This document shows, one piece after another, positions 6,946 to 29,822 of a DNA stretch of 33,668 nucleotides; position 1 is the first letter of the stretch, and the number at the start of each line of letters is the position of its first letter. Location: IMG/VR virus record IMGVR_UViG_3300010384_000118, positions 1 to 33,668 of that record, one strand, 5' to 3'. The notes beneath the pieces were generated by a model, which made no database searches, had not been told where the DNA came from, and saw nothing but the letters and a program-made list of their open reading frames with translations. The translations under genes and the position numbers were made by a program. This DNA is from a virus (taxonomy: Duplodnaviria; Caudoviricetes).

Positions 6946-7435
6946 TGTTGTTACCTGTAATGAAGTTCCAGAGCCTTGTCCACCAACTAGTTGCAGTTGT
7001 AGATGGGTTAGAGTTTTCAGCTGCTATAAAGTCTGTAGGAACTGAATCTTTAATTGGTTCCTCAAGAAGAGTGAGCATTTGTTCTTTGATAGGTAACAGT
7101 TCTGAATCAACTGAAACAGAAGTAATGATAAAACCAGCAGCCTCATAGTCACCCTTTTGTAATGCTTCATTGACTGCGTTTCTAACTCCATAAAAAGCAG
7201 CTCTAGCATTAACAGGTAGGCCATCAAACATTAAAGCAAGTTGTTCAATTGGTGTTGGAGGCTCATCTACTGGTTGATGAAAGTCCGTTCCATCGAAAGT
7301 CCATTTCTCAACAATTCCTTCAATCCCTGTTGCATCAACAAATTGTTGCGCCACATCAGGATGAAATGGAGGAAGTTCATCAGCAATGATGATTTCTCTA
7401 ACTATCCCATTCTCTACTCTAACAAAGGTTTTCAT
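6935..7435 (-). CDS. Tail fibre assembly/chaperone-like protein
   Basis: MKTFVRVENGIVREIII...WTFDGTDF N-terminus is typical of genes following glycine-rich fibre tips. TAATG-coupled to the fibre gene. Confidence 0.6.
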   Translation of the reverse strand: MKTFVRVENGIVREIIIADELPPFHPDVAQQFVDATGIEGIVEKWTFDGTDFHQPVDEPPTPIEQLALMFDGLPVNARAAFYGVRNAVNEALQKGDYEAAGFIITSVSVDSELLPIKEQMLTLLEEPIKDSVPTDFIAAENSNPSTTATSWWTRLWNFITGNNNVQ

Positions 7436-13531: not shown

Positions 13532-13549
13532 GTCCTTACCCTCATTCCC

Positions 13550-13595
13550 TACTAAAGAAATAGGGATTGAAAGCACTAGAACTATTTTCTAAATA
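13550..13595. promoter_or_regulatory. Back-to-back class B promoter-like motifs
   Basis: CTATTTCTTTAGTA on minus (13550-13563) and CTATTTTCTAAATA on plus (13582-13595), each facing its gene. Confidence 0.55.
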
Positions 13596-13614
13596 TAGAA
13601 TCCGAGTGTTTATA

Positions 13615-16491
13615 ATGGCTCATAATTGCAGTTTAGATGGTCTTATCAAAGCATTAAAAAAGATCTCTGGTGTTGAAGATAAGAAGCAAGCTGAATTATT
13701 AGGTGAACAGAATGTTCTTCCTTCAGTGGATAGAAATAAAGGTGTCTTCAGTAATTTTAGAGATACCTTCAATTCTGAAGCTAATTTCAAAGGAAAGACT
13801 TTTAAAGGTGTTCAAGGTGAAGAGTATTTGTTTGCAAGAGACAATTGGGCTTCAAACAGAAATAATGCAAGCCTTACAAACACTATCAAAGGCGCACAAG
13901 TTGCTTTAAATCCTACTGATTTCAATATCAATGGGAAGCTAACTAGATTAGATGCTTTCCAGCAAAGAAAAGCTCTTTGGGACTACTTGATGTTCAAGAA
14001 CTTTGAAGCTAGAGAAGGTCAAGGTGAGGAGTTACCCTTTAACCTACAGCCAGGTGAAGCAACTAGCTCTGCATCTAATCTTGAGGCTATTATTAGACAA
14101 AACCCACAACTATCAGGTCTTTTAGACCATTACAATGCTGTTTTAGATTTATCAACACAAGTAGGTAGACAACTAGGGATTATAGGTGAAGATGCAACCA
14201 TTCCCGGAAGACTACCTTATGAGGCTGAAGAACTCTTGTATGCGGCCCAAAAGCAAGGTGTTTTAGATGAGGGAATCTATACAAACCTCGATACTATCCT
14301 TGATTCACACTTAAAGCGCGTTGATAAAGCTGTCAACGAGTATCGTTTTAAAGCTGAAGTGGCTGAAAAGTATGGTACACCTTACAACCCAGAGTCACCT
14401 ATTCCTCAAGGTGAGGAAATCATGCAGCTTCGACCTTATGATCTCATGTCTATTGTTAATGGTGGTCAACAACCTGCCAATGGAATCTTTACAGCTATTG
14501 CAGAACATTATGAGAACAGAGCAGGTCTTCCAACAGGTGAAGCTTATACCGTTCCCAAAGAAATGGTTAGTGATATGGATAACTTCATCGATGATGTAAG
14601 GCTTCCAGAGTTTTGGAAAGCTGCAAATCAAGGAACATCGAACTGGAAAGCTCTTGTTACTGCAAATCCATTGAATCCCGGTGTTTTAAGGTATGTTGTC
14701 AATCAGCTAGTTCAAGATAACCTAATGAACTTTTCTATGATGGACCCTACAGCTTGGCGTAGTGTTCCAGAGGCTTTTGTAACCTTAAAAGACATTATTA
14801 AAGATCCAAAAGGTCAGATTGAAATCACTTTAGATAATGGACAACAGAAAGTCTTTTCGTCTAAAGAAATATCTGAAGGTCTTGGTATTACTGGTGTTTA
14901 TACAGACACTTATGGCAATGCAACTAGACCAACAAGTGCTTCATACCTTGAAAAGTTTGGAAACAAGCCTATGAGAGTTCTTTTAGGACTTCCAATTATT
15001 AAACAACTTGGAATGGGGTTTGATTTATTAGGTGACAAGATTATTTCAACCAATGAGTTTAGAGAGTCCTTACCTAAAATGGCTTCTTTCTTGAATCAAA
15101 TCAAACAAGGTAAATCTTTGGTTGAGGCCCATGAATATGCTGGTGAAAGACTTTTAAACCTTACTCGTATGTCACCTACTGAAAGAGCTTGGTTTGCAAA
15201 TGGACTTGTGCCTTTCTATAACGTTTACAAGCAATTGATTGTTACCCAAGCCAAAGCCTTAACAGGTAAGTATGGAGCTGGTGCAGCAGTTGGTGCATGG
15301 ATGATAGGTGTTGGAATCCCAGCGGCCATTGATACAGTCAATATGATGAGATACCCAGAACAAGAGGAAAAGCTAAGAAAAGCTTATCCAAATGATCATT
15401 TCTTCATTGCCAGTGTTGATGAAGATGGAAATGCAATAGCTGTCAAATATCCAGCCCCTGTACCTCTTCAGATGATTGGTTTAGATGGATTAGCACCTGC
15501 TATAGCACATATGGTTGCAGGTGGAACACTAGAGGAATCAACAGATATTCTAATGAGATCCTTAACAAGAGAAGGTTCTGACAATATTGCAGCTGGTGTT
15601 CCAGTTGTAGCACCACTCATTGATACTGTTGAAGGATTGTTATCACCCGGTGTTCAAGCCTTATCAACGCTTACAACAGGTTATGATCCTCATACAGGTA
15701 GACAAATTGTTAAACCTGATGATTCACCTATGGATAGATTGTCTAAAGCTGCTGGTGTTGGCATCAATGCTTTCAATCCCATTATAGGTGGTTGGTCAAG
15801 GCTCACTGATACAGCTTTAAGTGGTAATGATCAGTATCAAGACTTTAAAAGTAGTCTTCCTGATGCTGTAAAGAATCTTGCTGGTGTTCAAGATGACAAT
15901 AAACCCAGATCTGGAACAAATCAGGCTTATAAGCTTGCTGGTCAAATTGTTGGTCAAACCAAAGATATGAAAGGCCCAGGTATCCTTTATCAAGAGGAAC
16001 AACAAGTTGGTCAACTACAATCCCATAAAGTAAAAGACTTCAAGAAAGAAGAATCTGACTTTAAACGCTCTGAAAGAAAGCAATTGAACTCGGATAAAGA
16101 CTATGTTGATCTAACACCAAACTTAAGAAAGAAAGTTCAAAGCTTATTGTCATCATCTAAAGATGATGCTGGAATGTCATATCGGGCTATCATGGACCAT
16201 ATGAAACAAGTTGATGAGTATTATGCTGCTGTTGAAAAGGGTCAATTGAAGCTAACACCACAAGAACAACAGGCTTTAGACCAACATTATCAAGTCGGAC
16301 AACAATATTGGAACGCTTGGAAGAATGAAAGTCATTTAAGACAGCAAGTGGCTATCTTGGTTGCAAAAAGTTATCCTGATGCCGATTCAAGAACACAAAC
16401 AGAAATATATAAAGCAGCTTTATCACAGTATTCACAACTAGACACAGCTGATGTTGATACTGAAGAAACAAAGACTGAATCTACTGATTAA
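13615..16491 (+). CDS. Large internal virion / DNA-ejection protein with LPD38-like C-terminal region, inverted relative to the module
   Basis: VPFYN..Q and TGYDPHTGRQIV motifs plus an amphipathic GAGAAVGAW segment resemble large podophage ejection proteins. ATG 13615 (958 aa) is preferred to TTG 13567. Confidence 0.7.
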   Translation: MAHNCSLDGLIKALKKISGVEDKKQAELLGEQNVLPSVDRNKGVFSNFRDTFNSEANFKGKTFKGVQGEEYLFARDNWASNRNNASLTNTIKGAQVALNPTDFNINGKLTRLDAFQQRKALWDYLMFKNFEAREGQGEELPFNLQPGEATSSASNLEAIIRQNPQLSGLLDHYNAVLDLSTQVGRQLGIIGEDATIPGRLPYEAEELLYAAQKQGVLDEGIYTNLDTILDSHLKRVDKAVNEYRFKAEVAEKYGTPYNPESPIPQGEEIMQLRPYDLMSIVNGGQQPANGIFTAIAEHYENRAGLPTGEAYTVPKEMVSDMDNFIDDVRLPEFWKAANQGTSNWKALVTANPLNPGVLRYVVNQLVQDNLMNFSMMDPTAWRSVPEAFVTLKDIIKDPKGQIEITLDNGQQKVFSSKEISEGLGITGVYTDTYGNATRPTSASYLEKFGNKPMRVLLGLPIIKQLGMGFDLLGDKIISTNEFRESLPKMASFLNQIKQGKSLVEAHEYAGERLLNLTRMSPTERAWFANGLVPFYNVYKQLIVTQAKALTGKYGAGAAVGAWMIGVGIPAAIDTVNMMRYPEQEEKLRKAYPNDHFFIASVDEDGNAIAVKYPAPVPLQMIGLDGLAPAIAHMVAGGTLEESTDILMRSLTREGSDNIAAGVPVVAPLIDTVEGLLSPGVQALSTLTTGYDPHTGRQIVKPDDSPMDRLSKAAGVGINAFNPIIGGWSRLTDTALSGNDQYQDFKSSLPDAVKNLAGVQDDNKPRSGTNQAYKLAGQIVGQTKDMKGPGILYQEEQQVGQLQSHKVKDFKKEESDFKRSERKQLNSDKDYVDLTPNLRKKVQSLLSSSKDDAGMSYRAIMDHMKQVDEYYAAVEKGQLKLTPQEQQALDQHYQVGQQYWNAWKNESHLRQQVAILVAKSYPDADSRTQTEIYKAALSQYSQLDTADVDTEETKTESTD

Positions 16492-18827
16492 CAGCCTATT
16501 TGTTTGCCAAAGAAGTTCTTTTCTCTTTGTGATAAACCATCTAATTGACCATGAAGTTCTTCAGCCATGTCTTTTTCAACTAGTTCCCTATAGAGATTAG
16601 AGATATGGTCTACATCAAGGGGTTTTCTGTTTTTAATGTCCTTGAAAACATCAGTTAGTTTGCTGTTTATGGCTACTCTTTCTGTATTTGAGACAATATT
16701 AGACTTACTTTGTCTTTCAAATCCAAATTTTTCAATTAGATTAGCCGCTTTATCTGGTGTTACAGTTCTTGGTTCACCAATGAGCCTTCCATTAACATCA
16801 GTAAGTGTTAAATCAACAGCCTTATGATTAGCTTTAGAAGGTTCAGCTATAAGTGTTTGACCTTCAGCATTAGTATAAAAGTTTGGTTTTTCAGTAGGGA
16901 TTTTTTCATTCTGACCATAAAGGTTACGACCTGAATAAGCTTCCGCTGGAATCTCACCACCGGGAAACAAATCTTCCATTTTTCCAGATGCAATGTAAGG
17001 ATCAGACTCATATTGTGCTGCACGTTGTGCATATTCCTCTGGTGTATAACCTAGAATTGTTCTCTGAACGTCTTTATAGTTGTGTTTTTTGTTGGAAAAC
17101 ATTGATCCAATGGCTTTTTCATAGTCGCCACCATTAGAATCTAAATTTCCTCTTAAGGTTCTAGCTTGTGTCTCAATCACAGTCATTGGATCAGCATCAC
17201 CAATGTTGTATTTATCTGCCATCATAAGGTTTCTAACAACATCAGGATCAACCTTGTATTTGGCTGAAATTTCATCAATTAAAGGATAAAAAGCTTGTCT
17301 TGCCTCAAGATTCTGACCACCAGCTTGCTCAGTGTTATCTCCTACATAACGACCTTTATATAAAGAGTAATCAGGTTGACCTTCAAAGGATTGATCACTG
17401 AAAGGTAAAGGACTAGATGCTGTTTCCTCTGTTGATTGAGGTGTAAAGGTTGGTTCTGTTTGAACTTCAGGTTGAGCAGCTATTTTTTCACCGTCATTAC
17501 CTAAGAATTTAACAGCTCTTTGTCTTAAATCCCCAGATAGCATACGTTTTGCAACACCAGCAGCTGATGTTCCATTGCTATCTCTAGAACCCCAATACTT
17601 ACGTTCAGGACTACCAGCTAAAACAGTAGAGTATAAAGCAGTCTGTCTATCAGCTGGATTGGTATATTTTGAGGCATCAAAACCTCTGCCTTTAAAGTAT
17701 TTGACAACATAAGGCATCTGAGATTCAAATGTATTGTGGACATTAGGATTAAAACCAGTCTCTTTCATAGCACCTGGGCCAAACTGGATAAGTCCGTGAT
17801 AAAGTCCTTTATCTCCACCAACAGCTTTAGGATTTAAATCTGATTCAAGAGCCATTACAGAGGCCAATTCCTCTGGTGAAACACCTAATTGTTCAGCTCC
17901 CCACTTTAATGCATTAATATCAGCTGGTTTTCCTGTGCCTTTGATAACAGGCTTATTATCAACAGATTGTGGAGTAAAGGTAGGTTCATGTGTCTCACCA
18001 CCTTTTAAGGCGTTAGCAAGGATTTTAGCCCCCTCTGTTACACCATGAGCTACAGCACCACCAGCGGCTCCCATAACAGCCCCTTGTGCTGCACCACTTA
18101 CACGTCCTTGAAGTCCTTCTTTAGATTCGTTTAAAGCACCTAATCCTGCGCCAATAGCAGCATCTTTAGCTACTCTTTGAGCTAAACCAACATCCTTAAC
18201 ACCTTCAGCAGCTTTTCCTAGGTTTAATGCCTCACCACCAAACAAGAAAGGTACTTGTTCACCAGCAAAACCATAGACAGGATGATTATCCAGATAAGAT
18301 TGAGTCTTATCATCATAAACACCAAGCTGTATTTGAGGCTTATAAACATCTTTTCCTTGATAAGTATTACCAATATCAGCAGGTAGACTTAAAATACCTT
18401 GACCTAAATCTCTAACACCTTTACCAGTACCTAATGCAGCAGCACCAAGTCCAGTAATAACAGAAGTAGCACCTTCTTTGTTGGCTGTTTGACCTTCTTG
18501 ATTAAAGCTATTGCCTATATTTTTACCAATTTGTTGGTAGGTTTGTGGATTAGTTAAGGCAGATGCAGTATCACCAATACCTTTAATACCAGCATTAAAG
18601 AGATTTCCAAGCCCTTGTTGAACTGAAACACCTTGTTCTGTTGGCTTTACTTCAGTTTTAGCAGGTTCTTGAGGTGGTTCAATAGGGTTTTGCTTCTGCA
18701 TTTGACTTGCCCAATTATTAAAGTCAAAGCTTTGACCTGTAGTTGGACTAGTATTGTTAGTTGGTTGACCAACAGGTGCTTGCTTCTGCATCTTATTGGC
18801 CCAAGTATTGAAATCAAAACCACTCAT
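16488..18827 (-). CDS. Internal virion / DNA-ejection protein with lytic transglycosylase-like domain(s)
   Basis: LGVSPEELASVMALESDLNPKA...YHGLIQF matches the SLT motifs ES and GLxQ. Gly/Ala-rich membrane-insertion-like segment. Second degenerate SLT-like region. Confidence 0.8.
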   Translation of the reverse strand: MSGFDFNTWANKMQKQAPVGQPTNNTSPTTGQSFDFNNWASQMQKQNPIEPPQEPAKTEVKPTEQGVSVQQGLGNLFNAGIKGIGDTASALTNPQTYQQIGKNIGNSFNQEGQTANKEGATSVITGLGAAALGTGKGVRDLGQGILSLPADIGNTYQGKDVYKPQIQLGVYDDKTQSYLDNHPVYGFAGEQVPFLFGGEALNLGKAAEGVKDVGLAQRVAKDAAIGAGLGALNESKEGLQGRVSGAAQGAVMGAAGGAVAHGVTEGAKILANALKGGETHEPTFTPQSVDNKPVIKGTGKPADINALKWGAEQLGVSPEELASVMALESDLNPKAVGGDKGLYHGLIQFGPGAMKETGFNPNVHNTFESQMPYVVKYFKGRGFDASKYTNPADRQTALYSTVLAGSPERKYWGSRDSNGTSAAGVAKRMLSGDLRQRAVKFLGNDGEKIAAQPEVQTEPTFTPQSTEETASSPLPFSDQSFEGQPDYSLYKGRYVGDNTEQAGGQNLEARQAFYPLIDEISAKYKVDPDVVRNLMMADKYNIGDADPMTVIETQARTLRGNLDSNGGDYEKAIGSMFSNKKHNYKDVQRTILGYTPEEYAQRAAQYESDPYIASGKMEDLFPGGEIPAEAYSGRNLYGQNEKIPTEKPNFYTNAEGQTLIAEPSKANHKAVDLTLTDVNGRLIGEPRTVTPDKAANLIEKFGFERQSKSNIVSNTERVAINSKLTDVFKDIKNRKPLDVDHISNLYRELVEKDMAEELHGQLDGLSQREKNFFGKQIGC

Positions 18828-18836
18828 GTAATCACC

Positions 18837-20588
18837 TTACTTTTTAAGATTAGGTAGACCTGATAAGCCACCAGCACCAATTCCACCAATTGTTTTAGGT
18901 GTTGCTCTCTTTGGAATACCCATTCCTTCAGCAAAGATTGTGTCTAACTCTTGAGCTGAAGCACCTCTTTGCAATGCTGCAATGTAACGTGCAACCTCTG
19001 CACTAGACCAGCTGCCAGATTTATTAGCTAGAGCTTGAACATTAGGATCTTTTTCAGGATGTGTTTTAAATTCTTCTAAATGTTGAGCATTAGTAGCAGT
19101 TGTATTTAGACCTTGAATCTTTATCTGATATTCTTTTGATAAGTGACCAAATGCTTCTTTCAATTGATCTTGAGTTAAGCCTTTAAGTTCTTCAGCACTA
19201 GGTGTATAGTTTCCTTTTGCTTGATCAATCTTATTGATCACATTCTGAAACTGAATGTAAGAACCAGCAGTAGCAGGTGTTCCAGTAGCAACTTTTTGTT
19301 TATCAGATTGAAGTTGTGTTCTACCTTGTGGCGAAATCATATTTCCAACAGCAGATTGGAAAGCAGATGATTGTAGGCTTTGAATAGCTTGCATTTCCTC
19401 TGGTGTAGGTTGATAGTTAGGATCATTTTGTAGCTTTGTAGATAATTGGCTATAAATATCAATATCATGAGCATATTTCTGTTGATCAACTTGTGGTTGA
19501 ATAGCTTTGTTGTAATCCTCAATATTCCCTTTTCTGGTTCTAGCTCTTGTCTCTAAATCACCAGTTGTAAGACTAGTATTTAAAGCTGTACCGGGAACAT
19601 CAGAATAAACTCTTCCTCTTTCAAGGCCAGATGCTGCATTGCCTCTAAAGGTATTCATGTCTTTGGTATATTGATCACGAGCTGATTCAACAGTATTGCT
19701 ACCATTACGAACACCAGCACCAAGACCATTAATCATATTGGCAGCTAACATATTATTAGGATTGCCACGACCATAACCAGACATCATTGCCCCTTGAGAA
19801 ACGCCTTGTAATGCTTGTTGTGCTAAAGCTGCAAAAGGATGTTGAACAGCCCAAGGTGCTTCAGGTTTAATCATGTTGTTTTGAACTTGAAATCTGTTTT
19901 CGGGTGTATCAGCAAGTCCCAAAGCATTTAGAATATGAGGCATATTGGCATCAATTTGAGCTTGTCTAGCTTCTATATTCTTCTTTTCAGCCTCAACAGG
20001 ATTCTCAATGATAGGTGTAACTTGTGGTTGAGTAGCTTGTACTTGACCTTGAACAGGTTGACTAGGAGGCATTTGTTCAGGTGGAATAGGTTGTGTTGCA
20101 CCAGTAGATGCATTATGAACTACACCAGCGCCAGTTTGTTGATCTTGAAAGACAGTAGTTCCAGTCTTTGGATCTTGAGCAACAGGTTTAAAGCTTTGAG
20201 ATGGTGCAGGTTTTGTCTGCTGTATTGGCTTCTTAGTTAAAGTGCCAGGTAAAGCATTTTCAGCAGCTTGATTGATGGTTTTAGCAGGGGTGGCCGCTGG
20301 GTTTGATTGAATAGCTTGTTGTACAGCATTGTTTGCGATTTGCTGGGCTTGTGGATGAAGCATTTTATAAGCTACTGTTTGATGATCTGGATCATACCAA
20401 TCGCCCATAACACTAGTATTCCAAGCATTTCCAATACCTTTAAAGATGTTATTCATGTCTCTAGGGAAATTGACTACATCATTGCCAGCTGAAATAGCTG
20501 TGTCAGGATAAGGAAGCTGTTTTGGTGCAGCACTCATAGTGGTAGGCATATTAGGATCTAGTTTTTTCTTTTTGTTGTTATTACTCAT
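18837..20588 (-). CDS. Internal virion / DNA-ejection protein
   Basis: Q/P/A-rich, helical, Cys-free. Position in the ejectosome cluster. Confidence 0.6.
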   Translation of the reverse strand: MSNNNKKKKLDPNMPTTMSAAPKQLPYPDTAISAGNDVVNFPRDMNNIFKGIGNAWNTSVMGDWYDPDHQTVAYKMLHPQAQQIANNAVQQAIQSNPAATPAKTINQAAENALPGTLTKKPIQQTKPAPSQSFKPVAQDPKTGTTVFQDQQTGAGVVHNASTGATQPIPPEQMPPSQPVQGQVQATQPQVTPIIENPVEAEKKNIEARQAQIDANMPHILNALGLADTPENRFQVQNNMIKPEAPWAVQHPFAALAQQALQGVSQGAMMSGYGRGNPNNMLAANMINGLGAGVRNGSNTVESARDQYTKDMNTFRGNAASGLERGRVYSDVPGTALNTSLTTGDLETRARTRKGNIEDYNKAIQPQVDQQKYAHDIDIYSQLSTKLQNDPNYQPTPEEMQAIQSLQSSAFQSAVGNMISPQGRTQLQSDKQKVATGTPATAGSYIQFQNVINKIDQAKGNYTPSAEELKGLTQDQLKEAFGHLSKEYQIKIQGLNTTATNAQHLEEFKTHPEKDPNVQALANKSGSWSSAEVARYIAALQRGASAQELDTIFAEGMGIPKRATPKTIGGIGAGGLSGLPNLKK

Positions 20589-20590
20589 CG

Positions 20591-21097
20591 TTATAAACCT
20601 ACTTTTTGTTGTGCAATTAGTGCTTGTAAACGTGATAATGGATTGTCATCAACATAGTTTGGATTAACTTGTGTTGTTTGAAAGAATGGTGTTTGTTGAG
20701 TTGTAGGAAGTTGAACTTCAGGATTCAAGATAGGTGAAGTGTTATGATCAACTTGAATAGGTGAAATATTAGGATTTTCACTACCCATTGAATCCCCAAT
20801 ATTGGATAATGAACCCAAGCCAGCAAGTAGACCTGCTTTTGAAGCATTAAAGAGTTTTCCATGTGTTTTAGTAGTAGGATCTGCCAGTGATCCACCCTTT
20901 AGATAAGAGTTGATCTTTGTATAGTCAGGAATAGAGCTTCCAGAGCCATAGCTATTGATGTTGGTATAGTCAAAGATTCCTTCATGACCAATTTTAGGTG
21001 TTTTTAATAAAGGATCAGTGGAACTCAAGAAATCCGTCTTTGGTTTTGAATTACCAAAGAGCTTTGTGATATTCCCAATCTTTCCAAATGAAAACAT
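20591..21097 (-). CDS. Small internal virion protein
   Basis: Low complexity, GLLAGLG segment, position in the ejectosome cluster. Confidence 0.5.
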   Translation of the reverse strand: MFSFGKIGNITKLFGNSKPKTDFLSSTDPLLKTPKIGHEGIFDYTNINSYGSGSSIPDYTKINSYLKGGSLADPTTKTHGKLFNASKAGLLAGLGSLSNIGDSMGSENPNISPIQVDHNTSPILNPEVQLPTTQQTPFFQTTQVNPNYVDDNPLSRLQALIAQQKVGL

Positions 21098-21107
21098 TTA
21101 TAAGCAC

Positions 21108-21854
21108 CTACATCATGAATGGAATGGCCGCAGCAGCTATTGAGCCAGCAGCACCAATAGATGGGCCTAACCAGCTGTTACCTTGATTACCTGCATTGTA
21201 AGATTGCATTTGAGCATTAAACCTACTCATGATGCCATTGAGCTGATTCTGATAGTTTTGAGAGGCTACAGAGTTTCCATAAGCACCATTAGAGTTAGCA
21301 AACTGACCTAATGACATGAACTGATTATTGACATTGTTTGAGCCATTTGAACCAAGTGTTGCTTGATTCATCAAGTTATTGGTATAGTTCTGTTTTATTT
21401 GTTCTTTGTTTAAAGTAGCTTCATTTTGAACATCCTGTAAGCCTTGAGCTTCAGTCTTATCAATGTTTTGATTGATATAATCACTAGCACCAGATGCACC
21501 TAATACACCTTTAGAGTTATAGCTATTGATAGCAGCGTTTCTTGCTTGTCTAGCTGTATCTTTAATGGGTTGTGAGTTCTTTTGAACATAAGCAGCAGAC
21601 CAATCATTTAAGTAGCTATCAGCACCATTTGGATTGATCAATTGGTTCATAGCTTTAGAAGTTAATGTATTTGCTTGCTCTTGAGCTTGTTTTTGAGCAG
21701 GTGATAGAAAAGTCTGTTGAGTCCAGCTGTTTGTGGCTTTATCATAATGATTCTGAGCAATAACATTTCCATCAGAATCCTTGATAAAAGAATCAGAAGG
21801 ATCTGGTGCTTTTGGTATTGCCGGTGCTTTAGGTGCTTTTTTGCCAGAACCCAT
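21108..21854 (-). CDS. DNA-ejection/pilot protein
   Basis: MGSGKKAPKAPAIPKAPD N-terminus, Q/N/A-rich coiled body and hydrophobic Gly/Ala C-terminus are typical of the first podophage ejection protein. Confidence 0.7.
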   Translation of the reverse strand: MGSGKKAPKAPAIPKAPDPSDSFIKDSDGNVIAQNHYDKATNSWTQQTFLSPAQKQAQEQANTLTSKAMNQLINPNGADSYLNDWSAAYVQKNSQPIKDTARQARNAAINSYNSKGVLGASGASDYINQNIDKTEAQGLQDVQNEATLNKEQIKQNYTNNLMNQATLGSNGSNNVNNQFMSLGQFANSNGAYGNSVASQNYQNQLNGIMSRFNAQMQSYNAGNQGNSWLGPSIGAAGSIAAAAIPFMM

Positions 21855-21880
21855 TGATATTCCCTCATTCCCCTAGTTAT

Positions 21881-22414
21881 TTATGAAATAGAGGCAAGAA
21901 TATATTCATTCCTTAGTTCACCATGCAAATAAACCCTAGCCCTTATCAAGCCTTCTTTCTGAAACCCAATAGATTCATAAAACCTCACCCCATTTGTATT
22001 TTCCTCATCAATGTAGGTGAAGATTCTTTTAAGACCACGATTAAACAACATGTTTTTTGCAAAATTTGCAGCCTTTAACATAGCCTTTACACATTTATGT
22101 TCTTTGATACACCAAGTATGCAGAGAACAAGCATGTAGATAATCGTTTTGATAATCCCAATTATCAACAGCTATCATTCCAACTGGTTGATCACCTTTAT
22201 AGACAACCCAAATCCAATCTTCAAACTCTGATAGTCTTTGTGTAATATCTATTGCTGCCCATTCAGTACGAACTAATCCATCCTGATAGAGATCCATTGT
22301 TTGGTTGTAGAGTTTAGCTATAAAATCAGCTCTTTCATCTGTAAAGTAGTTTTCACCACCATTAAAGAGATTCTTAAACGTAATATCATCAAACTGAAAG
22401 ATAGTCTTATCCAT
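21881..22414 (-). CDS. GNAT (RimJ/RimL-like) acetyltransferase-fold protein
   Basis: C-terminal GLKRIFTYIDEENTNGVRFYESIGFQKEG motif. The ATG at 22414, just after the nozzle stop, is preferred to 22522. Confidence 0.8.
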   Translation of the reverse strand: MDKTIFQFDDITFKNLFNGGENYFTDERADFIAKLYNQTMDLYQDGLVRTEWAAIDITQRLSEFEDWIWVVYKGDQPVGMIAVDNWDYQNDYLHACSLHTWCIKEHKCVKAMLKAANFAKNMLFNRGLKRIFTYIDEENTNGVRFYESIGFQKEGLIRARVYLHGELRNEYILASIS

Positions 22415-22415
22415 A

Positions 22416-24002
22416 CTACTTTGGTGAAACACCATATGTTCCATAGATGAAATCAAAGCCAAGTATTCTAAAGGGTTCATCAGCATTGAGATTTGAAAAT
22501 CTAATTTTGACATTAGAACCACGCCCTAATGGACCATCCTCAATGCGAATCTTTTTTACCTTTTTAGAGGTGAAAGTGCTTATGTTCCATAAGGATTCAC
22601 CAAACAAGGAAAATTCTGTTGGCTGCATATTTAATGACTTGGAAAAGTAGGTATCACCTAGATTCCAAGATAGTTCTACCTCTAAATCAAAGTTCCCAAC
22701 TTGTTCTAAGAATAAATCAAGTCTGATAAGCCTTTTGTTTAAAGCGATATTGCCTAGATTAAACCAAGATGATCCCCAATATGATTCAATAGCAACACCA
22801 TCATAAGAGTCAGATGTATCATGCTTTTGTAACCAACCATCATAACCACCTAGAATAGGTCTACTTTTATAAAATGTCCCACAACCAGCTGAGAATCCAG
22901 TTCTGATAGTCCAATACCACATAGGGCCACCTTGAGGGTTTAAAGAACCATCATCAGAGTAGTCAAGAACAATGACCTTATTGTTTTTTGGGGATGAACC
23001 ATCTGGAATAACAAACCAGACTTGCTTTTTAGTCTCGTAGTGGATTGCATAAGCTGAATTTATTTTATTTGAGTTCCAACCAGCAATAGTCTTTGTAAGC
23101 TTGGTTGATACACTGTTTGCAATGATGTTACCTACAATGTTCTGATTGATAGCGGCAGATAGCTTGTTAATCCCTGTATAATCAATGAAATACTGCTCGT
23201 TATAGATGTTGACTACAGAACGTGGTGCTATACAGCCTTTTGTAGCATTTACAACAGATAATCCAAACTCATTTGAACCACCTGAACCAATTGCAGAATC
23301 ACCAGTCAATTGATGAATGGATGCTGTTTTATAGATGATGATAGAGTTGTAGAAAGTGGAAATGTTAGTAATCGATTGACCATCATTGACGTTTACAGGA
23401 ATAAAACCACCATAGTTTGATTCAAAGGCAGTACCAACAGATTCATTCTTTGTTAGAAAGGTGATTCCACCATTTGTGGGGTCTACGGCATTTGAATACC
23501 AAATGTTTTGAGGTTTAGAACTAGCACCACTCATCCATAATCTGTTTTTCCAGACTAAAACTAATGATGGGATAGACGAATCAGTCCACCAAGGGGCTAT
23601 AGAGATTGTTGTACTATCAAAAATTAACGGCCTATCAGCACCATTGACCATGATTGCATAGTCAGAAAAAGTAGCAAATTGGAAGTATTTTCCTGGGGTG
23701 ACACCTGTATAAGCTACAGTGAAGTTCTTACCATCTTGTGAGGTATAGATTTTATCCCCACAACAGACAATGAGGTAAGATGCACCAGTTGATAATATAA
23801 ACTCGTAAACACCAGTAATAGAGGCTCCATCATTGAGCTGTGAGATATTTTGAGTAACATATCCTTTGCACTTAACGATTGATCCATCCTGATTGAACTC
23901 AACATTCTGAATCTCTGTTGCCTCATAAGGGCTTAGAGTAAGTTCATTCTTAGCTTCATTTAATCCACCTTTAAAGACGGAATAGTTAGCTGTTTGAGAC
24001 AT
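22416..24002 (-). CDS. Tail nozzle / tubular protein B-like (beta-propeller)
   Basis: FKGGLN...NVEF..G N-terminus, WKNRLW, IWYS and GCIAPRSV motifs. Follows the adaptor gene. Confidence 0.85.
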   Translation of the reverse strand: MSQTANYSVFKGGLNEAKNELTLSPYEATEIQNVEFNQDGSIVKCKGYVTQNISQLNDGASITGVYEFILSTGASYLIVCCGDKIYTSQDGKNFTVAYTGVTPGKYFQFATFSDYAIMVNGADRPLIFDSTTISIAPWWTDSSIPSLVLVWKNRLWMSGASSKPQNIWYSNAVDPTNGGITFLTKNESVGTAFESNYGGFIPVNVNDGQSITNISTFYNSIIIYKTASIHQLTGDSAIGSGGSNEFGLSVVNATKGCIAPRSVVNIYNEQYFIDYTGINKLSAAINQNIVGNIIANSVSTKLTKTIAGWNSNKINSAYAIHYETKKQVWFVIPDGSSPKNNKVIVLDYSDDGSLNPQGGPMWYWTIRTGFSAGCGTFYKSRPILGGYDGWLQKHDTSDSYDGVAIESYWGSSWFNLGNIALNKRLIRLDLFLEQVGNFDLEVELSWNLGDTYFSKSLNMQPTEFSLFGESLWNISTFTSKKVKKIRIEDGPLGRGSNVKIRFSNLNADEPFRILGFDFIYGTYGVSPK

Positions 24003-24004
24003 AA

Positions 24005-24697
24005 CTATCCCCTCTTGCGTCTGGTGTTTATGGTTGCAGAAGGCTTATAGCCATAGGTTTTACGGTTATGAACTAACATCTCACCAAGTTTTGTTGTGTA
24101 GAGGTTCTGATAGCTTTGCGCTCTAGTGTTTTCCTCTAAGAAAGCAGCTAATAAAGCTGATGCACCATAAATCAATACGTTATGATCTTTAGCTGGAATG
24201 ATTGGTGTGTCATCGTTTTCAGATAAATCATCTGGAACTACTTGATACCGTAGTTTAACGGTTGAACCTGCATCAGGGACTGGATAAAAGGTGATTTGGT
24301 TATTGAAAATATAACAGACAAAGGGAAATGGACTTGTTTGAATATTATTGATTAGAAACAAATCATAGTTATAGTCAAATACAACACGATCAAATTCGCT
24401 GTAGGTGAGTTGTTCAATTAGATAGCCATTAGTTGCAAAGCGAACTTCTTTGATAGAGTTGGGATCACAACCAGTTGGTAAATCATAAGTGCTGGTTCCA
24501 GCTATAATGCTGATTGTGCCTTCTCTTTCACGCCAAGACCAATCTAAGGAATGACCATAAACATCTCTGTAAATCTGGTTAATGAAGGTTTTTGTTTGGG
24601 GAACACGTTCAGTTGTATTGTTATCAAGATCTGTAACAGCTGTGAAATCGTTATTGGTTAAAACTTCATTGACAAGTTGGAGATAATTCACTGTCAA
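24005..24697 (-). CDS. Head-tail adaptor / tubular protein A-like
   Basis: NYLQLVNEVL...WSW...YDLP...FYPVPD...DTPIIP..H.VLIYGA pattern. TTG start. Confidence 0.85.
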   Translation of the reverse strand: MTVNYLQLVNEVLTNNDFTAVTDLDNNTTERVPQTKTFINQIYRDVYGHSLDWSWREREGTISIIAGTSTYDLPTGCDPNSIKEVRFATNGYLIEQLTYSEFDRVVFDYNYDLFLINNIQTSPFPFVCYIFNNQITFYPVPDAGSTVKLRYQVVPDDLSENDDTPIIPAKDHNVLIYGASALLAAFLEENTRAQSYQNLYTTKLGEMLVHNRKTYGYKPSATINTRRKRG

Positions 24698-24711
24698 ACC
24701 CTTCGTATTTA

Positions 24712-24754
24712 TAAAATAAAAATAGATAAGGCCCCTCTTACAGAGCCTTATCTA
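24712..24754 (-). terminator. Intrinsic terminator after the methyltransferase
   Basis: Minus strand TAGATAAGGC...GCCTTATCTA followed by TTTTTATTTT. Confidence 0.75.
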
Positions 24755-24784
24755 CAAAGGGTTTATCCCCACGATCACATTTAA

Positions 24785-25423
24785 TTATATCTTCAGAATG
24801 AAAATGTCAGATGTATCAGTGTTTTCCAGTTCAATACTAGTCCAAGAATGTTCTCTTAACAGCATATAGACCTGTAATGGCTCCCAATACTTAACCTTAT
24901 TCAACTCATGAGTATCATTGATGTTTGTAATTTGAGTGAATACTTGTGTCTTTGGATCATAATGATTCAAGATATTGATACCATTGAAAGAAGTATGACT
25001 AGGATTATTCTTTAAGGTCTGTAGTTTTGGCAGGTCAAAGATAAAAATCGAATCTTTAGATAGTAAACTATGCATTTTAGTTATAAATGCTCTTAAAACA
25101 GCTAGATTCTGCATATGATTTAAGATATTTGTACTACATAGAATCAAATCAAAACGGTTGTGAAAGAGGTGAAAGAGAACATCATCATTGATGAAGGTTA
25201 TTGATGGGTCTTTTTCTTTGGCAATAGCTACCATTTCAGCGGATAGATCAATTCCAGTTACAGTATAGCCCTTGTCTTTAAGTAATAAAGAGCTTGATCC
25301 AGTACCACAACCAACATCTAGTACCTCTTTATGGTCATCTGGTATGAATCTCATTAGAGAATCACGAACTAGCTTCCTGCTATCGTCAATAGAATCATAG
25401 TATTTGGCATGTTTGTAATACAT
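24785..25423 (-). CDS. Class I SAM-dependent methyltransferase (non-DNA type)
   Basis: Motif I VLDVGCGTG, then GIDLSAEMV, FDLIL and IFIFD. No DPPY/NPPY or PCQ motif. Confidence 0.9.
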   Translation of the reverse strand: MYYKHAKYYDSIDDSRKLVRDSLMRFIPDDHKEVLDVGCGTGSSSLLLKDKGYTVTGIDLSAEMVAIAKEKDPSITFINDDVLFHLFHNRFDLILCSTNILNHMQNLAVLRAFITKMHSLLSKDSIFIFDLPKLQTLKNNPSHTSFNGINILNHYDPKTQVFTQITNINDTHELNKVKYWEPLQVYMLLREHSWTSIELENTDTSDIFILKI

Positions 25424-25426
25424 GAT

Positions 25427-25465
25427 AAAAAAATAGAGCCAATCTTTCGACTAGCTCTATCTTTT
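25427..25465 (-). terminator. Intrinsic terminator after the major capsid gene
   Basis: Minus strand ATAGAGCTAGTC-GAAA-GATTGGCTCTAT followed by a T run. Confidence 0.85.
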
Positions 25466-25480
25466 GAGTGTTTTTGATTA

Positions 25481-26635
25481 TTAGGATGCGAGTACGTTTT
25501 TGAAGTGCCAGTGAGTCTCTGGTAAACGAATTTCCATTGTGAATTCACCGAATGCTTGCGCTCTTTGAACTAGACCAGTACGAGCTAAAGGCTCCATTTG
25601 GAAACCCATACCTTGTAGAGGTGCAAAGGTCAAATTCTCGCTAGAAATGATAAATACATCAGTAGGACGAACGTTTTGACTTACAATAATTGGTAGATCA
25701 CCAGCTTCAGAACCATAAACATCTAAGATGTTTTGTAGTTTCTTGGTGTCTTGGCTTTGTGCTTTATCAAAGCGTGAAGACTGTAACTGGTTAAATGATT
25801 TTTTCTGAGCATTACCAACTAAAATTCCATCAGGTTTAGCACCTAGTGCTAGTAAGCTGAAGATAGCCGTATCTAGGTCAGTTGTTGCAAGAGCATTACT
25901 AGACATATCAGTTACATTGCCAGTAGGGATTTTGGAACGGAAACCAGCCATAGTTCTTAAAGTTGCATCACCGGGATCATATTGGCGCCCATAGATAGAT
26001 GTAATTTCAGCTTCTTTTAACATCTCTTTCATTTTTTTGGATGTTTGAGCTTTAACATCACCTTCAGATGCTTGCTGTCTTACATGACTAGAGGTATCAG
26101 AGATTTCAATCAAGCGATGGAAGATCTGAGTTACGTTAGAGTCACGACTTGCAACTTCTACTTCATTCTCGGTAGGTGTGTAAGATTCAGGTTTTGGTTT
26201 AGAAACAATATAAACAGTTCTTAAAGTGGAACCAGAAACAACAGAAGTGTGAGCTACATGAGTAGTGCCTGCATACTGACGAGAACAAGTTAAAGTTACA
26301 TCTGGTGCGTTAGTCACTTCATCAATAGATAACACTCGGAATTGCTCTGAATCAATCTCAATGATAGTGTTTACAACGTATTTTGTGCTAGTACCAGATA
26401 CGCTAGAACCTTTAACTTGAACAGAAACGTTGCTAGTTCCATCTGCAATGTTTGCTGATAAGCGGTCTACCATACCTGTTAAGCGATAGTTGATCCAATA
26501 GTGAACAACGTTTTGAGCTGCTTTACTTTGGTCCATAATTTTATTTAAGAAAGGTGTTTCTCTCTCAGCAAGAATAGATACCGCTGGAGATAAGTCCTCG
26601 TTATCACCTTCAAGTGAATAACTTATAAGTGCCAT
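25481..26635 (-). CDS. Major capsid protein (SU10/DUF5309-like HK97 fold with an inserted beta domain)
   Basis: EDLS...ETPF...HYW, NVTQIF, RTMAG, PLARTG and GEFTME motifs. Follows the scaffold gene and precedes a strong terminator. Confidence 0.9.
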   Translation of the reverse strand: MALISYSLEGDNEDLSPAVSILAERETPFLNKIMDQSKAAQNVVHYWINYRLTGMVDRLSANIADGTSNVSVQVKGSSVSGTSTKYVVNTIIEIDSEQFRVLSIDEVTNAPDVTLTCSRQYAGTTHVAHTSVVSGSTLRTVYIVSKPKPESYTPTENEVEVASRDSNVTQIFHRLIEISDTSSHVRQQASEGDVKAQTSKKMKEMLKEAEITSIYGRQYDPGDATLRTMAGFRSKIPTGNVTDMSSNALATTDLDTAIFSLLALGAKPDGILVGNAQKKSFNQLQSSRFDKAQSQDTKKLQNILDVYGSEAGDLPIIVSQNVRPTDVFIISSENLTFAPLQGMGFQMEPLARTGLVQRAQAFGEFTMEIRLPETHWHFKNVLAS

Positions 26636-26728
26636 GTTTTACCCTCATTCCCTTTTCTTTCTGCTGAAAGAGTTATTTCTGTGGTTAATCTGGATATTGA
26701 ATAGGTAAAACAGGTTATGATTTTATTT

Positions 26729-27601
26729 TTAGACCTTTTTAAGATTACGTAATTTGATACCTAAAATGGCATCAAGATCCTTATTAGCAATGGCCTCTTG
26801 CAGGTCATCATTCTTAGAACGAGGAGGAATAACATTGCCTGAACCTTCAACATAAGCACGTTTTTTCTTGTTGGATTCAGCCATGGCTTTCTCATATCCC
26901 TTCTTTTCAGCAAATTGATAGGCTGCATTGATACGCTGTGCAGCATCTTTAAAGATTTCACCAGCATTAGCATATTTTTTATCTTGCATATCACGTTCAG
27001 CTAAATCATTAGCCAGATCAAATAAGAAGGTGTCAAAAACAGGATCTTTAAAGTATTCAAACTCTTGATGGATAGATTCTATAGCTTCGGTGACAGAGGC
27101 TTTAACTTCCTCTTGTCTCTCTAAAAGTTGTTTATGTTCTTCCTCTTTAGTAGTTCTTTCTTGATCATGTTGTTTCATCATGACCTTATTCATCCAAGCA
27201 TTAGCATTGATTGGATCTTTATCAAACCACTCTAAATACTTTTGGTTTAAGAGTTCTTGTCTTTCAGGGCTTAAAGCAAGAGGAATATCATTAGCTAATG
27301 CCCAATCTATAGCTTGAAATGGGTTTTGATCGAAAGAATTACAGAATTGAACATCAATCTGTTGTAATTGTTCTTGGGTGAAACGACCTAAAAGTAGTTC
27401 TGGTTGTTCAGTCTTTGTTTCTTCAACCTTTGGTTCTACAACTTGAACCATAGTATCCACATTGACTTTATCTTGTGTTTTGACTGGTCCAGTAGTGGAG
27501 ACACTTTCTTTTACAGGTGCTTCAGTCTTTGTTTCCTCAACTGGAACGGATTCAGTCTTTGTTTCCGCTGGTGCAAGTCCAAAAAGGTTGCTATTAGACA
27601 T
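26729..27601 (-). CDS. Capsid scaffolding protein
   Basis: Acidic low-complexity N-terminus, coiled-coil core, directly upstream of the MCP. Confidence 0.75.
   Translation of the reverse strand: MSNSNLFGLAPAETKTESVPVEETKTEAPVKESVSTTGPVKTQDKVNVDTMVQVVEPKVEETKTEQPELLLGRFTQEQLQQIDVQFCNSFDQNPFQAIDWALANDIPLALSPERQELLNQKYLEWFDKDPINANAWMNKVMMKQHDQERTTKEEEHKQLLERQEEVKASVTEAIESIHQEFEYFKDPVFDTFLFDLANDLAERDMQDKKYANAGEIFKDAAQRINAAYQFAEKKGYEKAMAESNKKKRAYVEGSGNVIPPRSKNDDLQEAIANKDLDAILGIKLRNLKKV
27407..27565 (-). repeat. Three GAAACAAAGACTGAA (ETKTE) repeats in the scaffold gene, with a fourth copy at 16465-16479 (+)
   Basis: Copies at 27407-27425, 27521-27539 and 27549-27565 read directly from the sequence. 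Confidence 0.85.
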
Positions 27602-27641
27602 ATTTGAATAATCCTACTATTGCTTTGTTTTATTAATAGGA

Positions 27642-27911
27642 TTATTGCTTTGCCTTTCTTTCACAGATATTAAAGAACTCCAAGAGTCCTTCATTGAACT
27701 TGGTATGACCATGAAGAACAAGTAAACCCTCTTGTGTTGGCTGATAGTCACAAGGTTTACGAGATAAAGCTTCTAACTCTTCTTTGAGCTGTTTATATAC
27801 TGGTGTGTTAATGAATGACTTATAAGCTATTGCCTCTTGTTCTTTTTGCTTTTTATTCAGTTTTCTTTCAGTATCTAATTTCTTAAAGAACTCTGACTGT
27901 TGTTCATTCAT
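27642..27911 (-). CDS. Small portal-associated hypothetical protein
   Basis: Position between portal and scaffold, SD AAGGA. Confidence 0.65.
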   Translation of the reverse strand: MNEQQSEFFKKLDTERKLNKKQKEQEAIAYKSFINTPVYKQLKEELEALSRKPCDYQPTQEGLLVLHGHTKFNEGLLEFFNICERKAKQ

Positions 27912-27921
27912 AAGTTAATCC

Positions 27922-29775
27922 TTATTGTGGTGTAGCACCTGGGCTAGATGGTTGTGCTAACTGTGGTGCCTCTAAACTGTTAGCATTACCTTGTGGAAGA
28001 GTAGGTGGCCCTTGCATAGCAGCAGATTGTGCCATAGCTTGTTGCTGCATCATTTGTTGTGAGGCAATAAGCGCCTGAAGACTTTGTGTGATGATGGATT
28101 GTTGAACTTGTTTGCAAACTTCATCACCCATCATGTATCTTTCTTTGTCATCAAAGCCATGTAGCTTCATCCAGTCCTCTGTAATAGACTCCCAGTTGAC
28201 CATTCCACCTTGAGGAAGCTGGGCTAGTGTGGCATAAAGCTTTTCAATGCTTTGAATACGTTCGTTATTGTCTGTAACAGTCTGTAAGCCAGTAATATCA
28301 ATGGCTAAATCACTTAAAGGAACACCTTCCATTAGGATTTCAGGATCACAACCTGTGTAAGTTGCAATATCTTCTTTGCTTCCAAACATCCTGATAAGCT
28401 CATAGGTAAAAGCAACAGCAGGTTCTAGGAACTTTTCGTTTAGATGCTTGGCTATGTTGGTAAAGTTTTTATCTGAGGCTTGAGAAAGGATAGTATCACT
28501 GGTTGCTGTGCCACTCCCGGATGAACTATCTCCACCTTTAGCATATTTTAAGACTGTAGTTGTCTCTTCATACTCTGCTTTCAATACATTTAACATTTCA
28601 AGAGGTGTGGAAATATTGCTACTGTTATCAATTGTCCAAATAGAATCTGGCCCATCCATAGCATGTAGACCACCGGGGCGTTGTATAAAATTATCTGGGT
28701 CAAAGGTTCTGTCAGTTGCCTTATAGCCATATTGTTTAAAGAGTTTGATAGTTAGCTCATCAGATAAGAAATTGCTAATAAATTCAGCTCTATCTTGGAT
28801 AGGTAAGCCTTTTTCAATGAAGCCTTCTCCATATGCGGAACCGGGAATCTCTCTAAAAGATGTAAATAAGAAAGGTCTTTGTGGATAAGGATTAGGTTCA
28901 AAACGTATAACATGTTTTCTGTTTGCAACAACACAAACAAAGTCCCTATAAGTCTTTCCATCAATAACAAAATCACCCCAAGCCTCAAGTAACTCTGCCT
29001 GATTCTTTGGAGGAGTAGGATCTTTAACACCTAGAAAACATGCTATATTCTTGGAAAATGAATCATCATTAGGATTGGACACTGCATCATTGCTAGTAAT
29101 TGAGTCAGTATTGATGTAAACACCACCATTTGATTCATCATTAGCTTTAATATCACTGATATTACGGAATAAGCGCTGAATCATCATAGACTCAGATACA
29201 TCAGCATTATTTGCAGGATAGATAACAAAGTCCTGCATCTTAACAAACTCATACCAAGGAGCATCATAGACAAGACCTTCAGTCTCCATATCTATCTTGC
29301 CTTGTCTTTGTTTCCAGTAGACCTTCATACAAGTACAACCAATAACAGAACCTTGTAATAAGAAGAGATCAGTGGAATTTGCAAAGTTTCCCTTCTTAAA
29401 GATTCTCTTTTGATATTTGGTTAGAGCCTCTGCATTTAAAACTTGTAGTTCATCAGATCCATTGACAGGTCTAATCTGAAAGAAATTTTCATCATTAGGC
29501 ATTGTGATAGATCTGATTTGTGTGGTTCCAGCAATAGCAGCTTGATAAGACCAAGGTAATGAATGATTGCTACGCCATCTTTCATGTTCAGGATAAAACT
29601 CTGGATCTACATATTGGGAGAATGCTTTCCAGCATCTTTCCCAGACCTTCTCTCTTTCAGCTCTGTCTTTACGGCCATTAGACCAATTCTCAACAACAGT
29701 GTTAGCTATCTTGGCTTGTGTATCTTCGCTAAAGCTTTCAGGTTGAAGATTATTGTCTTGGATTTCTAAGGCCAT
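27922..29775 (-). CDS. Portal protein (podovirus type)
   Basis: 617 aa following TerL. Motifs G....KVYW, LEAWG, NPY..RPF, PGSAYGEG, TAT; Q-rich tail. Confidence 0.9.
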   Translation of the reverse strand: MALEIQDNNLQPESFSEDTQAKIANTVVENWSNGRKDRAEREKVWERCWKAFSQYVDPEFYPEHERWRSNHSLPWSYQAAIAGTTQIRSITMPNDENFFQIRPVNGSDELQVLNAEALTKYQKRIFKKGNFANSTDLFLLQGSVIGCTCMKVYWKQRQGKIDMETEGLVYDAPWYEFVKMQDFVIYPANNADVSESMMIQRLFRNISDIKANDESNGGVYINTDSITSNDAVSNPNDDSFSKNIACFLGVKDPTPPKNQAELLEAWGDFVIDGKTYRDFVCVVANRKHVIRFEPNPYPQRPFLFTSFREIPGSAYGEGFIEKGLPIQDRAEFISNFLSDELTIKLFKQYGYKATDRTFDPDNFIQRPGGLHAMDGPDSIWTIDNSSNISTPLEMLNVLKAEYEETTTVLKYAKGGDSSSGSGTATSDTILSQASDKNFTNIAKHLNEKFLEPAVAFTYELIRMFGSKEDIATYTGCDPEILMEGVPLSDLAIDITGLQTVTDNNERIQSIEKLYATLAQLPQGGMVNWESITEDWMKLHGFDDKERYMMGDEVCKQVQQSIITQSLQALIASQQMMQQQAMAQSAAMQGPPTLPQGNANSLEAPQLAQPSSPGATPQ

Positions 29776-29822
29776 TAAGGCATCCCCACTATTTCAAATC
29801 TGTTGATAATGAAATAGTGGTT

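What the first reader, a model, noticed from the sequence alone, without database searches (positions are those of the whole stretch)
13615..18827. Split ejection protein whose only two cysteines sit at the junction (...KQIGC-stop / MAHNC...)
Seen: the 779-aa SLT-bearing protein has a single Cys, its last residue. The 958-aa LPD38-like protein has a single Cys, residue 5. The other three ejection proteins (583, 168 and 248 aa) have none, so roughly 2,700 aa contain two Cys, both at the facing termini. Known: muralytic and LPD38-like regions often occur in one giant podophage virion protein, and ejection proteins cross the oxidising periplasm. Inference: the two genes encode halves of one functional chain that is relinked end-to-end after translation, most simply by a disulfide, possibly forming only on ejection. 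An alternative is a vestigial or trans-catalysed splice junction, because Cys1 and His-Asn/Cys are the canonical intein boundary residues. No Hint domain is visible in the window.
Basis: partly seen in the sequence, partly recalled or inferred. Interest (0 to 1): 0.85.

Follow-up and report, generated by a model that had tools for sequence, protein, structure and literature searches.

The report
Terminal cysteines tie split ejection protein
Two large proteins that this prophage likely packs in its head and injects each carry a single cysteine at one end; relatives keep both cysteines when the gene is split and lack them when it is fused, so the two halves are likely tied tail-to-head by a disulfide, a link already seen in the solved particle of a cyanobacterial phage.

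Summary
The cysteine counts are right; the geometry is not. The 779-aa SLT gene (minus strand) and the 958-aa LPD38-like gene (plus strand) converge and share a stop, so the second is inverted. All 3 split pairs end IGC-stop and begin xxHNC with no other cysteine, at 29-42% identity, but they form one clade. Of 17 long, fused-type relatives, 16 have no cysteine and none has a terminal one. The mechanism has a solved precedent: cyanopodophage A4 has a gp27 Cys1715-gp26 Cys5 disulfide inside the mature capsid (PMC12002296). The window's C-half is a remote homolog of gp26 (profile-profile 96.8%). A tail-to-head disulfide, likely formed before ejection, is the best reading (0.78). Splicing is unlikely: no Hint domain was found. 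The bond itself is untested here. This scan noted the same rule earlier in crAss-like phages; crAss001 shows it, with convergent genes too.

The parts
16488..18827 (-). N-half, 779 aa: low-complexity and Gly/Ala-rich N-terminus shared with fused relatives, SLT muramidase domain, C-terminal helical segment ending in its only Cys
17499..17942 (-). SLT-type domain core (residues 296-443; Pfam SLT 311-361; Glu328 invariant in 3 of 3, catalytic role inferred)
16491..16493 (-). Cys779 codon, last residue of the N-half; I-G-C-stop in 3 of 3 split forms
13615..16491 (+). C-half, 958 aa, LPD38-like all-alpha protein; inverted relative to the virion operon and to relative L002
13627..13629 (+). Cys5 codon of the C-half; H-N-C in 3 of 3 split forms
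14041..15714 (+). Residues 143-700 of the C-half, remote match to cyanopodophage A4 gp26 residues 320-899
   Evidence: hhalign 96.8%, E 2.7e-10; controls
16488..16491 (.). Overlapping stop codons of the two convergent genes; one inversion boundary, no long repeat
13532..13614 (.). 83-nt divergent spacer, the other inversion boundary, with back-to-back copies of a CTATTT motif ahead of the C-half gene (+) and the tail fibre gene (-); candidate late promoter, inferred
18837..21854 (-). Three further Cys-free putative ejection proteins (583, 168, 248 aa), with orthologs in the same order in L002
11984..13531 (-). Tail fibre gene; probable start is the TTG at 13531 (aligns 1-515 with the L002 ortholog, 65%)
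21881..31343 (-). SU10-type podovirus head-tail module: terminase, portal, scaffold, major capsid, methyltransferase, adaptor, nozzle, GNAT acetyltransferase
1..1125 (+). Tyrosine integrase; the record is classed as a provirus

Best explanation
The 779-aa and 958-aa proteins are the two halves of what is a single giant protein in related prophages, and they are likely packed in the capsid as ejection proteins and likely re-tied tail to head by a disulfide between Cys779 and Cys5. Shown: homology of each half to one end of fused relatives, the conserved terminal cysteines, their absence in fused forms, and the inversion of the second gene. Inferred from phage A4: the C-terminal helix of the N-half docks on the C-half around the portal, and the bond forms in the assembled particle once it meets oxidising conditions, before infection. 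Inferred further: the bond keeps the halves at 1:1 and in order as they unfold through the tail; all other cysteines are avoided so that only this bond can form; it would be reduced if the junction reaches the cytoplasm. Because the link is made between proteins, gene order and strand are free to change.
For: 3 of 3 split N-halves end IGC with no other Cys; 3 of 3 C-halves have HNC at Cys5/7/7 and no other Cys, although the window's C-half is only 29% identical to the other two. 16 of 17 long forms of 1,262-2,722 aa have no Cys, and the 17th has two internal ones. P0004, P0006 and P0008 match both halves (33-39% over 241-272 aa; 22-23% over about 880-970 aa). Fused G107 has the same gene slot. 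A4: cryo-EM disulfide between gp27 Cys1715 (of 1717) and gp26 Cys5; each is the protein's only Cys, in the last two ejection genes. 6 of 6 cyanopodophage pairs checked keep the pair. C-half family against gp26 family: 92.5% and 96.8%; 9 of 9 reversed or shuffled controls gave 0.3% or less. crAss001 shows the pattern with convergent genes. An LPD38 protein is found in phi24B virions.
Against: No bond, virion or expression was observed for this phage. The three split pairs are one clade (100/99) and two are 63-73% identical, so this is one split event and about two independent comparisons. P0003 and P0025 are paired only by their shared longest-contig length (36,728). The gp26 match covers residues 143-700, not the termini; narrower profiles gave only 2-4%, and the N-half shows no match to gp27 (0.3% or less). 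An invariant His next to Cys5 is not needed for a disulfide.
Confidence: 0.78

Rival explanations
1. Metal clasp: His3 and Cys5 of the C-half with Cys779 (and the free C-terminal carboxylate) bind a zinc ion that holds the halves together, also in the reducing cytoplasm during assembly.
For: His is invariant two residues before the Cys in 3 of 3 C-halves. The Cys is the very last residue in 3 of 3 N-halves. A metal site would work before lysis (inference).
Against: In the homologous cyanopodophage pairs a His near Cys5 occurs in 1 of 6, and the A4 model shows a disulfide. A Gly-His lies at a similar distance from the first conserved block in the fused P0005 cluster and G107 (registered by hand, MAFFT does not place it there), so the His may be inherited.
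Confidence: 0.09
2. The cysteines are conserved but do not link these two chains: each bonds to the same residue of a ring neighbour or to another virion protein, or they survive by descent in a small clade.
For: One clade, about two independent comparisons. Neighbouring virion proteins (nozzle, adaptor, portal) carry cysteines. The termini show no detectable homology to the A4 termini.
Against: Both Cys appear exactly where the chain is split and in none of 17 long forms. HNC survives 29% identity. The same tail-to-head arrangement recurs in 6 of 6 cyanopodophages and in crAss001, and is a hetero-link where solved.
Confidence: 0.09
3. Splice or ligation junction: Gly-Cys(end) and His-Asn/Cys are the remains of intein boundaries, and a catalyst in trans joins the halves by a peptide bond.
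For: The residues match intein block A and G boundaries (recalled, no call), and are invariant in 3 of 3 pairs.
Against: No Hint match in the window (PF14890 at E up to 1; Pfam scan of 27 proteins) or for PF07591 in G000 and G001; both records may be incomplete (G000 estimated 37%). One residue on one side and 3-5 on the other give a trans catalyst almost nothing to bind (inference). In A4 both proteins keep their termini and are disulfide-bonded. His-Asn-Cys occurs in 0 of 6 cyanopodophage partners.
Confidence: 0.04

Closest known systems
Cyanopodophage A4 (Anabaena phage A-4L, Saffermanviridae) pre-ejectosome gp27-gp26, disulfide Cys1715-Cys5 (PMC12002296; PDB 9K2V, 9K3A)
   Same: Last two ejection genes before the tail fibre; each protein has a single Cys, at the C-terminal end of the first and at position 5 of the second; the window's C-half family matches gp26 residues 320-899 at 96.8%.
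   Different: Here the Cys is the very last residue, the muramidase is in the N-half (in A4 it is in gp28), the N-half has no detectable homology to gp27, the second gene is inverted, the phage is temperate with an SU10-type head, and fused Cys-free relatives exist in the same gene slot.
Cys-free ejection proteins of N4-like phages (Schitoviridae: N4 gp50-52, DEV gp71-73; PMC11445570)
   Same: Near-total cysteine suppression in the ejection operon (here 2 in 2,736 aa).
   Different: The passages read describe the few cysteines as unconserved or as sequence errors; here two are conserved and terminal. No RNA polymerase match here.
Phage polyvalent proteins with LPD38 (PMC5512222; phi24B gp47, bioRxiv 10.64898/2026.04.10.717836)
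   Same: LPD38-like C-terminal module, variable enzyme cargo in the N-terminal part (SLT here; ParB-like and kinase-like domains in fused relatives), encoded among virion genes.
   Different: Those are single chains; here the chain is cut just ahead of the LPD38-bearing module. The window protein has no Pfam LPD38 hit.
crAss001 cargo proteins gp47, gp50, gp49 (NC_049977; PMC10172136)
   Same: gp47 has its only Cys at 2339 of 2341; gp50 has Cys5 and Cys2404 of 2412 (plus 1334); gp49 has only Cys5; gp47 converges on gp49-gp50.
   Different: No homology was tested; they carry an RNA polymerase; the passages read report disulfides in the tail and vertex proteins, not between cargo proteins.

Membership tests
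A4-type disulfide-linked ejection pair | Two large proteins in the last ejection-gene slots between nozzle and tail fibre | tested here: met
A4-type disulfide-linked ejection pair | Single Cys within the last 3 residues of the first protein and within the first 8 of the second | tested here: met
   Cys779 of 779 and Cys5; 3 of 3 pairs; 6 of 6 cyanopodophage pairs, one with two extra Cys
A4-type disulfide-linked ejection pair | Second protein homologous to gp26 | tested here: met
   hhalign 92.5% and 96.8% with wide profiles, controls 0.3% or less; narrower profiles 2-4%; remote, and termini not covered
A4-type disulfide-linked ejection pair | First protein homologous to gp27 | tested here: not met
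   hhalign 0.3% or less, hmmsearch no hit; lowers membership of the gp27 family, not the mechanism
A4-type disulfide-linked ejection pair | Fold like gp26 | tested here: inconclusive
   model of mean pLDDT 58.5; see Tried and rejected
A4-type disulfide-linked ejection pair | Disulfide present in the virion | not testable with these tools
   needs particles or purified proteins
LPD38 polyvalent phage protein | Pfam PF18857 above cut-off | tested here: not met
   no hit for the window protein; relative P0011 15.6 bits against 27
LPD38 polyvalent phage protein | Likeness to LPD38 clusters by embedding and predicted structure | tested here: met
   0.97, 196 of 256 features, cluster 94% LPD38; TM 0.50 over 609 residues
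SLT lytic transglycosylase | SLT profile match with catalytic Glu | tested here: inconclusive
   21.0 bits against 21.3; Glu328-Ser invariant in 3 of 3; PDB 9udh lytic transglycosidase E 0.023
Split intein / trans-splicing | Hint domain fragments on the two halves or a free Hint gene | tested here: not met
   records may be incomplete
Split intein / trans-splicing | Boundary residues Cys1 and His-Asn/Cys+1 (recalled) | tested here: met
   IGC-stop and HNC in 3 of 3 pairs; insufficient without the catalytic core
Recombinase-invertible segment | Inverted repeats at both ends of the inverted gene | tested here: not met
   longest shared word between the two boundary regions is 9 nt and lies inside the ORFs; none among the 25 longest inverted repeats

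The most novel reading that the evidence does not exclude
Podoviruses use one terminal disulfide as a stand-in for a peptide bond: whenever a giant ejection protein splits, a cysteine pair is gained at the new ends, so the cargo still threads through the tail as one ordered chain and is released by reduction in the host cytoplasm. This frees the halves to be swapped, inverted and separately expressed. This family would show the step directly, with fused cysteine-free and split cysteine-tipped forms in one gene slot, and it ties the A4 structure to the LPD38 polyvalent proteins.
Probability: 0.4. Interest if true: 0.75.

Novelty: new member of a known kind. Interest (0 to 1): 0.56.

Why it matters
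How podoviruses order and deliver their injected proteins is open, and cysteine avoidance in these proteins is usually read as simple protection from periplasmic oxidation. The A4 paper reports one inter-subunit disulfide and, in the sections read, treats it as stabilising. This family adds the comparison that was missing there: the cysteine pair is present where the chain is split and absent where it is fused. That makes a general rule testable with two point mutants in an editable phage such as A4. It also gives a simple sequence marker (terminal-only cysteines) for finding partner ejection proteins even when their genes are inverted. The score is held down because the bond type is already solved in a homologous system and this phage adds one split event.

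Full report
Observation. The window is a 33.7-kb provirus record with an integrase and an SU10-type podovirus virion operon on the minus strand. Between the GNAT gene and the tail fibre lie five large ORFs without Pfam or PHROG names, apart from a borderline SLT match in the 779-aa one. The geometry differs from the description: the 958-aa gene is on the plus strand and converges on the 779-aa gene, the stops overlapping at 16488-16491. Twenty-two cysteines would be expected at the window's background rate; the placement of the two has a chance of about 5e-5 to 7.5e-4, with zones chosen after the fact.

One chain in relatives. A search of 1.84 billion representatives gave 12 rows, one of them the query and one a repetitive false hit. 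P0004, P0006 and P0008 match the N-half at their start (33-39% over 241-272 aa) and the C-half at their end (22-23%), so the two proteins are a single chain there. A prophage in genome G107 has a fused 1,651-aa gene in the same slot, before the tail fibres. I counted cysteines in 17 long forms: 15, L021 and L034. Sixteen have none, and P0017 has two internal ones. Eight of the 17 belong to one 90% cluster, so about ten are distinct. P0010, P0011, P0012, L021 and L034 are called fused from their length, not from a clear match to this N-half.

Split relatives. P0003 (942 aa, 29-31% identical over the full length) starts with HNC and has no other Cys. Locus L002, a prophage in a Candidatus Melainabacteria genome with the same gene order, has both genes in tandem: a 698-aa SLT protein ending IGC-stop, a 279-nt gap, and a 949-aa protein with Cys7 in HNC. 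P0025 (692 aa) ends IGC and shares its longest-contig length with P0003; I infer that they are neighbours but could not fetch the contig. So 3 of 3 split pairs keep both cysteines and have no other. Against over-reading: the three form one clade (100/99) among fused forms on a midpoint-rooted tree of 15 rows, from which 8 near-copies of P0005 were left out, and two of them are 63-73% identical. This is one split, probably derived, though the tree has no outgroup. The host of the window itself was not determined; Melainabacteria is inferred from L002, G107 and G115.

Where the cut falls. The C-half begins 49-52 residues ahead of the first conserved block. In fused forms a basic helix followed by Gly-His, Gly-Gln or Gly-aromatic lies at about that distance, 50-55 where I counted it. 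By hand, G-H-N-C-N-P lines up with G-H-M-L-N-P of G107, which suggests that the His was inherited and the Cys was gained. MAFFT does not place them together, so this is a lead only.

Precedent. A literature search led to the cryo-EM structure of cyanopodophage A4 (PMC12002296; I read sections 8 and 9, search passages, and part 1 of 2 of the supplement as text; figures, including the S9 alignments, are not held). There the C-terminal helix of gp27 inserts into a cleft of gp26 and Cys1715 bonds to Cys5, inside the mature capsid. In the A-4L genome these are the only cysteines of gp27 (1,717 aa) and gp26 (1,114 aa), the last two ejection genes. I checked 6 of the 20 records with a gp26 homolog, chosen across genera: all 6 have a sole Cys in the last three residues of the first protein and a Cys at 5-8 in the second; TR020 has two more. 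Profile-profile comparison of the window's C-half family with the gp26 family gave 92.5% and 96.8%, E 2.7e-10, over residues 143-700; one reversed and eight block-shuffled controls gave 0.3% or less. Narrower profiles gave 2-4%, HMM searches gave nothing, and the N-half does not match gp27. Cysteine suppression in N4-like ejection proteins is published (PMC11445570, passages). LPD38 is limited to phage-type polyvalent proteins (PMC5512222, passages), and one is in phi24B virions (bioRxiv 10.64898/2026.04.10.717836, passages; supplements closed).

Earlier notes of this scan. Four unchecked notes describe the same rule in crAss-like phages, three of them citing A4, which I had found independently. 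I tested the rule on crAss001: gp47 has its only Cys at 2339 of 2341, gp50 has Cys5, 1334 and 2404 of 2412, gp49 has only Cys5, and gp47 converges on the other two. The passages of PMC10172136 that I read mention disulfides only in tail and vertex proteins.

The inversion. No repeat longer than 9 nt joins the two boundary regions, both genes are complete, and the 83-nt spacer holds back-to-back copies of a CTATTT motif. CTATT[TAG] lies upstream of 8 of 19 late genes in the window and 6 of 11 in L002, against 0.9 and 0.4 in shuffles; the pattern was picked from these same sequences. The C-half gene has it in both phages, so it likely has its own promoter and can be turned round. The C-half is the most diverged of 12 ortholog pairs (29%, against 61% for nozzle and capsid), and the window's N-half begins like P0006 and not like L002, so both halves have changed much while the two cysteines stayed.

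Mechanism. The best reading is a tail-to-head disulfide that restores the connection of the fused chain (0.78). In A4 the bond is present before infection, so 'only on ejection' is unlikely; oxidation after lysis is inferred. A zinc clasp (0.09) and cysteines that bond elsewhere (0.09) remain open. Splicing (0.04) rests on boundary residues recalled from intein chemistry; no Hint match was found and none of the six cyanopodophage partners has His-Asn-Cys.

Novelty. The bond type is known from A4, so this is a new member of a known kind. Searches for 'pre-ejectosome' with 'disulfide' (1 paper), for ejection protein, disulfide, cysteine, podovirus and periplasm (12 papers), for cargo protein with terminal cysteine (28 papers, 20 listed) and for LPD38 with phage (5 papers) showed no paper on a split-versus-fused rule or on a link between gp26 and LPD38 proteins; most of these I saw only as listings, and the library lacks most subscription journals.

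Noticed in passing
window 13532-13614 and upstream of late genes; L002 likewise: A CTATT(T/A/G) motif 25-40 nt ahead of terminase, portal, scaffold, adaptor, the 248-aa, 958-aa, tail fibre and 723-aa genes; candidate late promoter or regulator site (8 of 19 and 6 of 11, pattern picked post hoc).
   Followed up: partly
L002 9712-9921, minus strand: A roughly 70-aa hydrophobic antisense ORF fills the gap between the two halves. crAss001 has a small minus-strand gene (gp48) between gp47 and gp49. Possibly a moron-type membrane protein.
   Followed up: no
window 17060-17300 (N-half residues about 510-590): A second, degenerate SLT-like stretch, conserved in all three N-halves and lacking the Glu-Ser motif (seen by eye; atlas lead 0.85).
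   Followed up: partly
window 18590-18700 region (N-half residues 45-303) against L002 7619-8300: The window's N-half starts like the fused P0006, P0008 and P0004, while L002 and P0025 carry a different N-terminal module: mosaic exchange ahead of the SLT domain.
   Followed up: partly
window 24785-25423: A class I SAM methyltransferase gene sits between capsid and adaptor in both the window and L002 (40% identical); its only Cys residues are 39 and 96. Role unknown.
   Followed up: no
L001 (MW495066.1) 14219-24036: The best GenBank match of the nozzle lies in 'Microcystis phage MaAM05', among tRNA ligases, FtsH and glgX; it looks like a bacterial contig with a prophage remnant lacking the giant ejection gene. 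A published comment and reply on PhiMa05 appear (listing only).
   Followed up: no
P0026: The window's SLT domain is 60% identical to a domain in a C40-family peptidase from an Archangiaceae genome, a possible transfer between predatory bacteria or their phages.
   Followed up: no
P0004, P0008, P0005: Fused relatives carry different inserted cargo between the two shared ends: a zeta-type kinase, ddrB-ParB domains.
   Followed up: no
L023 25321-28497; L027 469-2139: A4 gp28 and its CHP58 counterpart have Cys-x-x-Cys near the C-terminus, a separate feature of the M23-bearing ejection protein.
   Followed up: no
window 7435-9606: A 723-aa Thr-rich fibre-like protein with 111-nt repeats and a Gly-rich C-terminus.
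   Followed up: no
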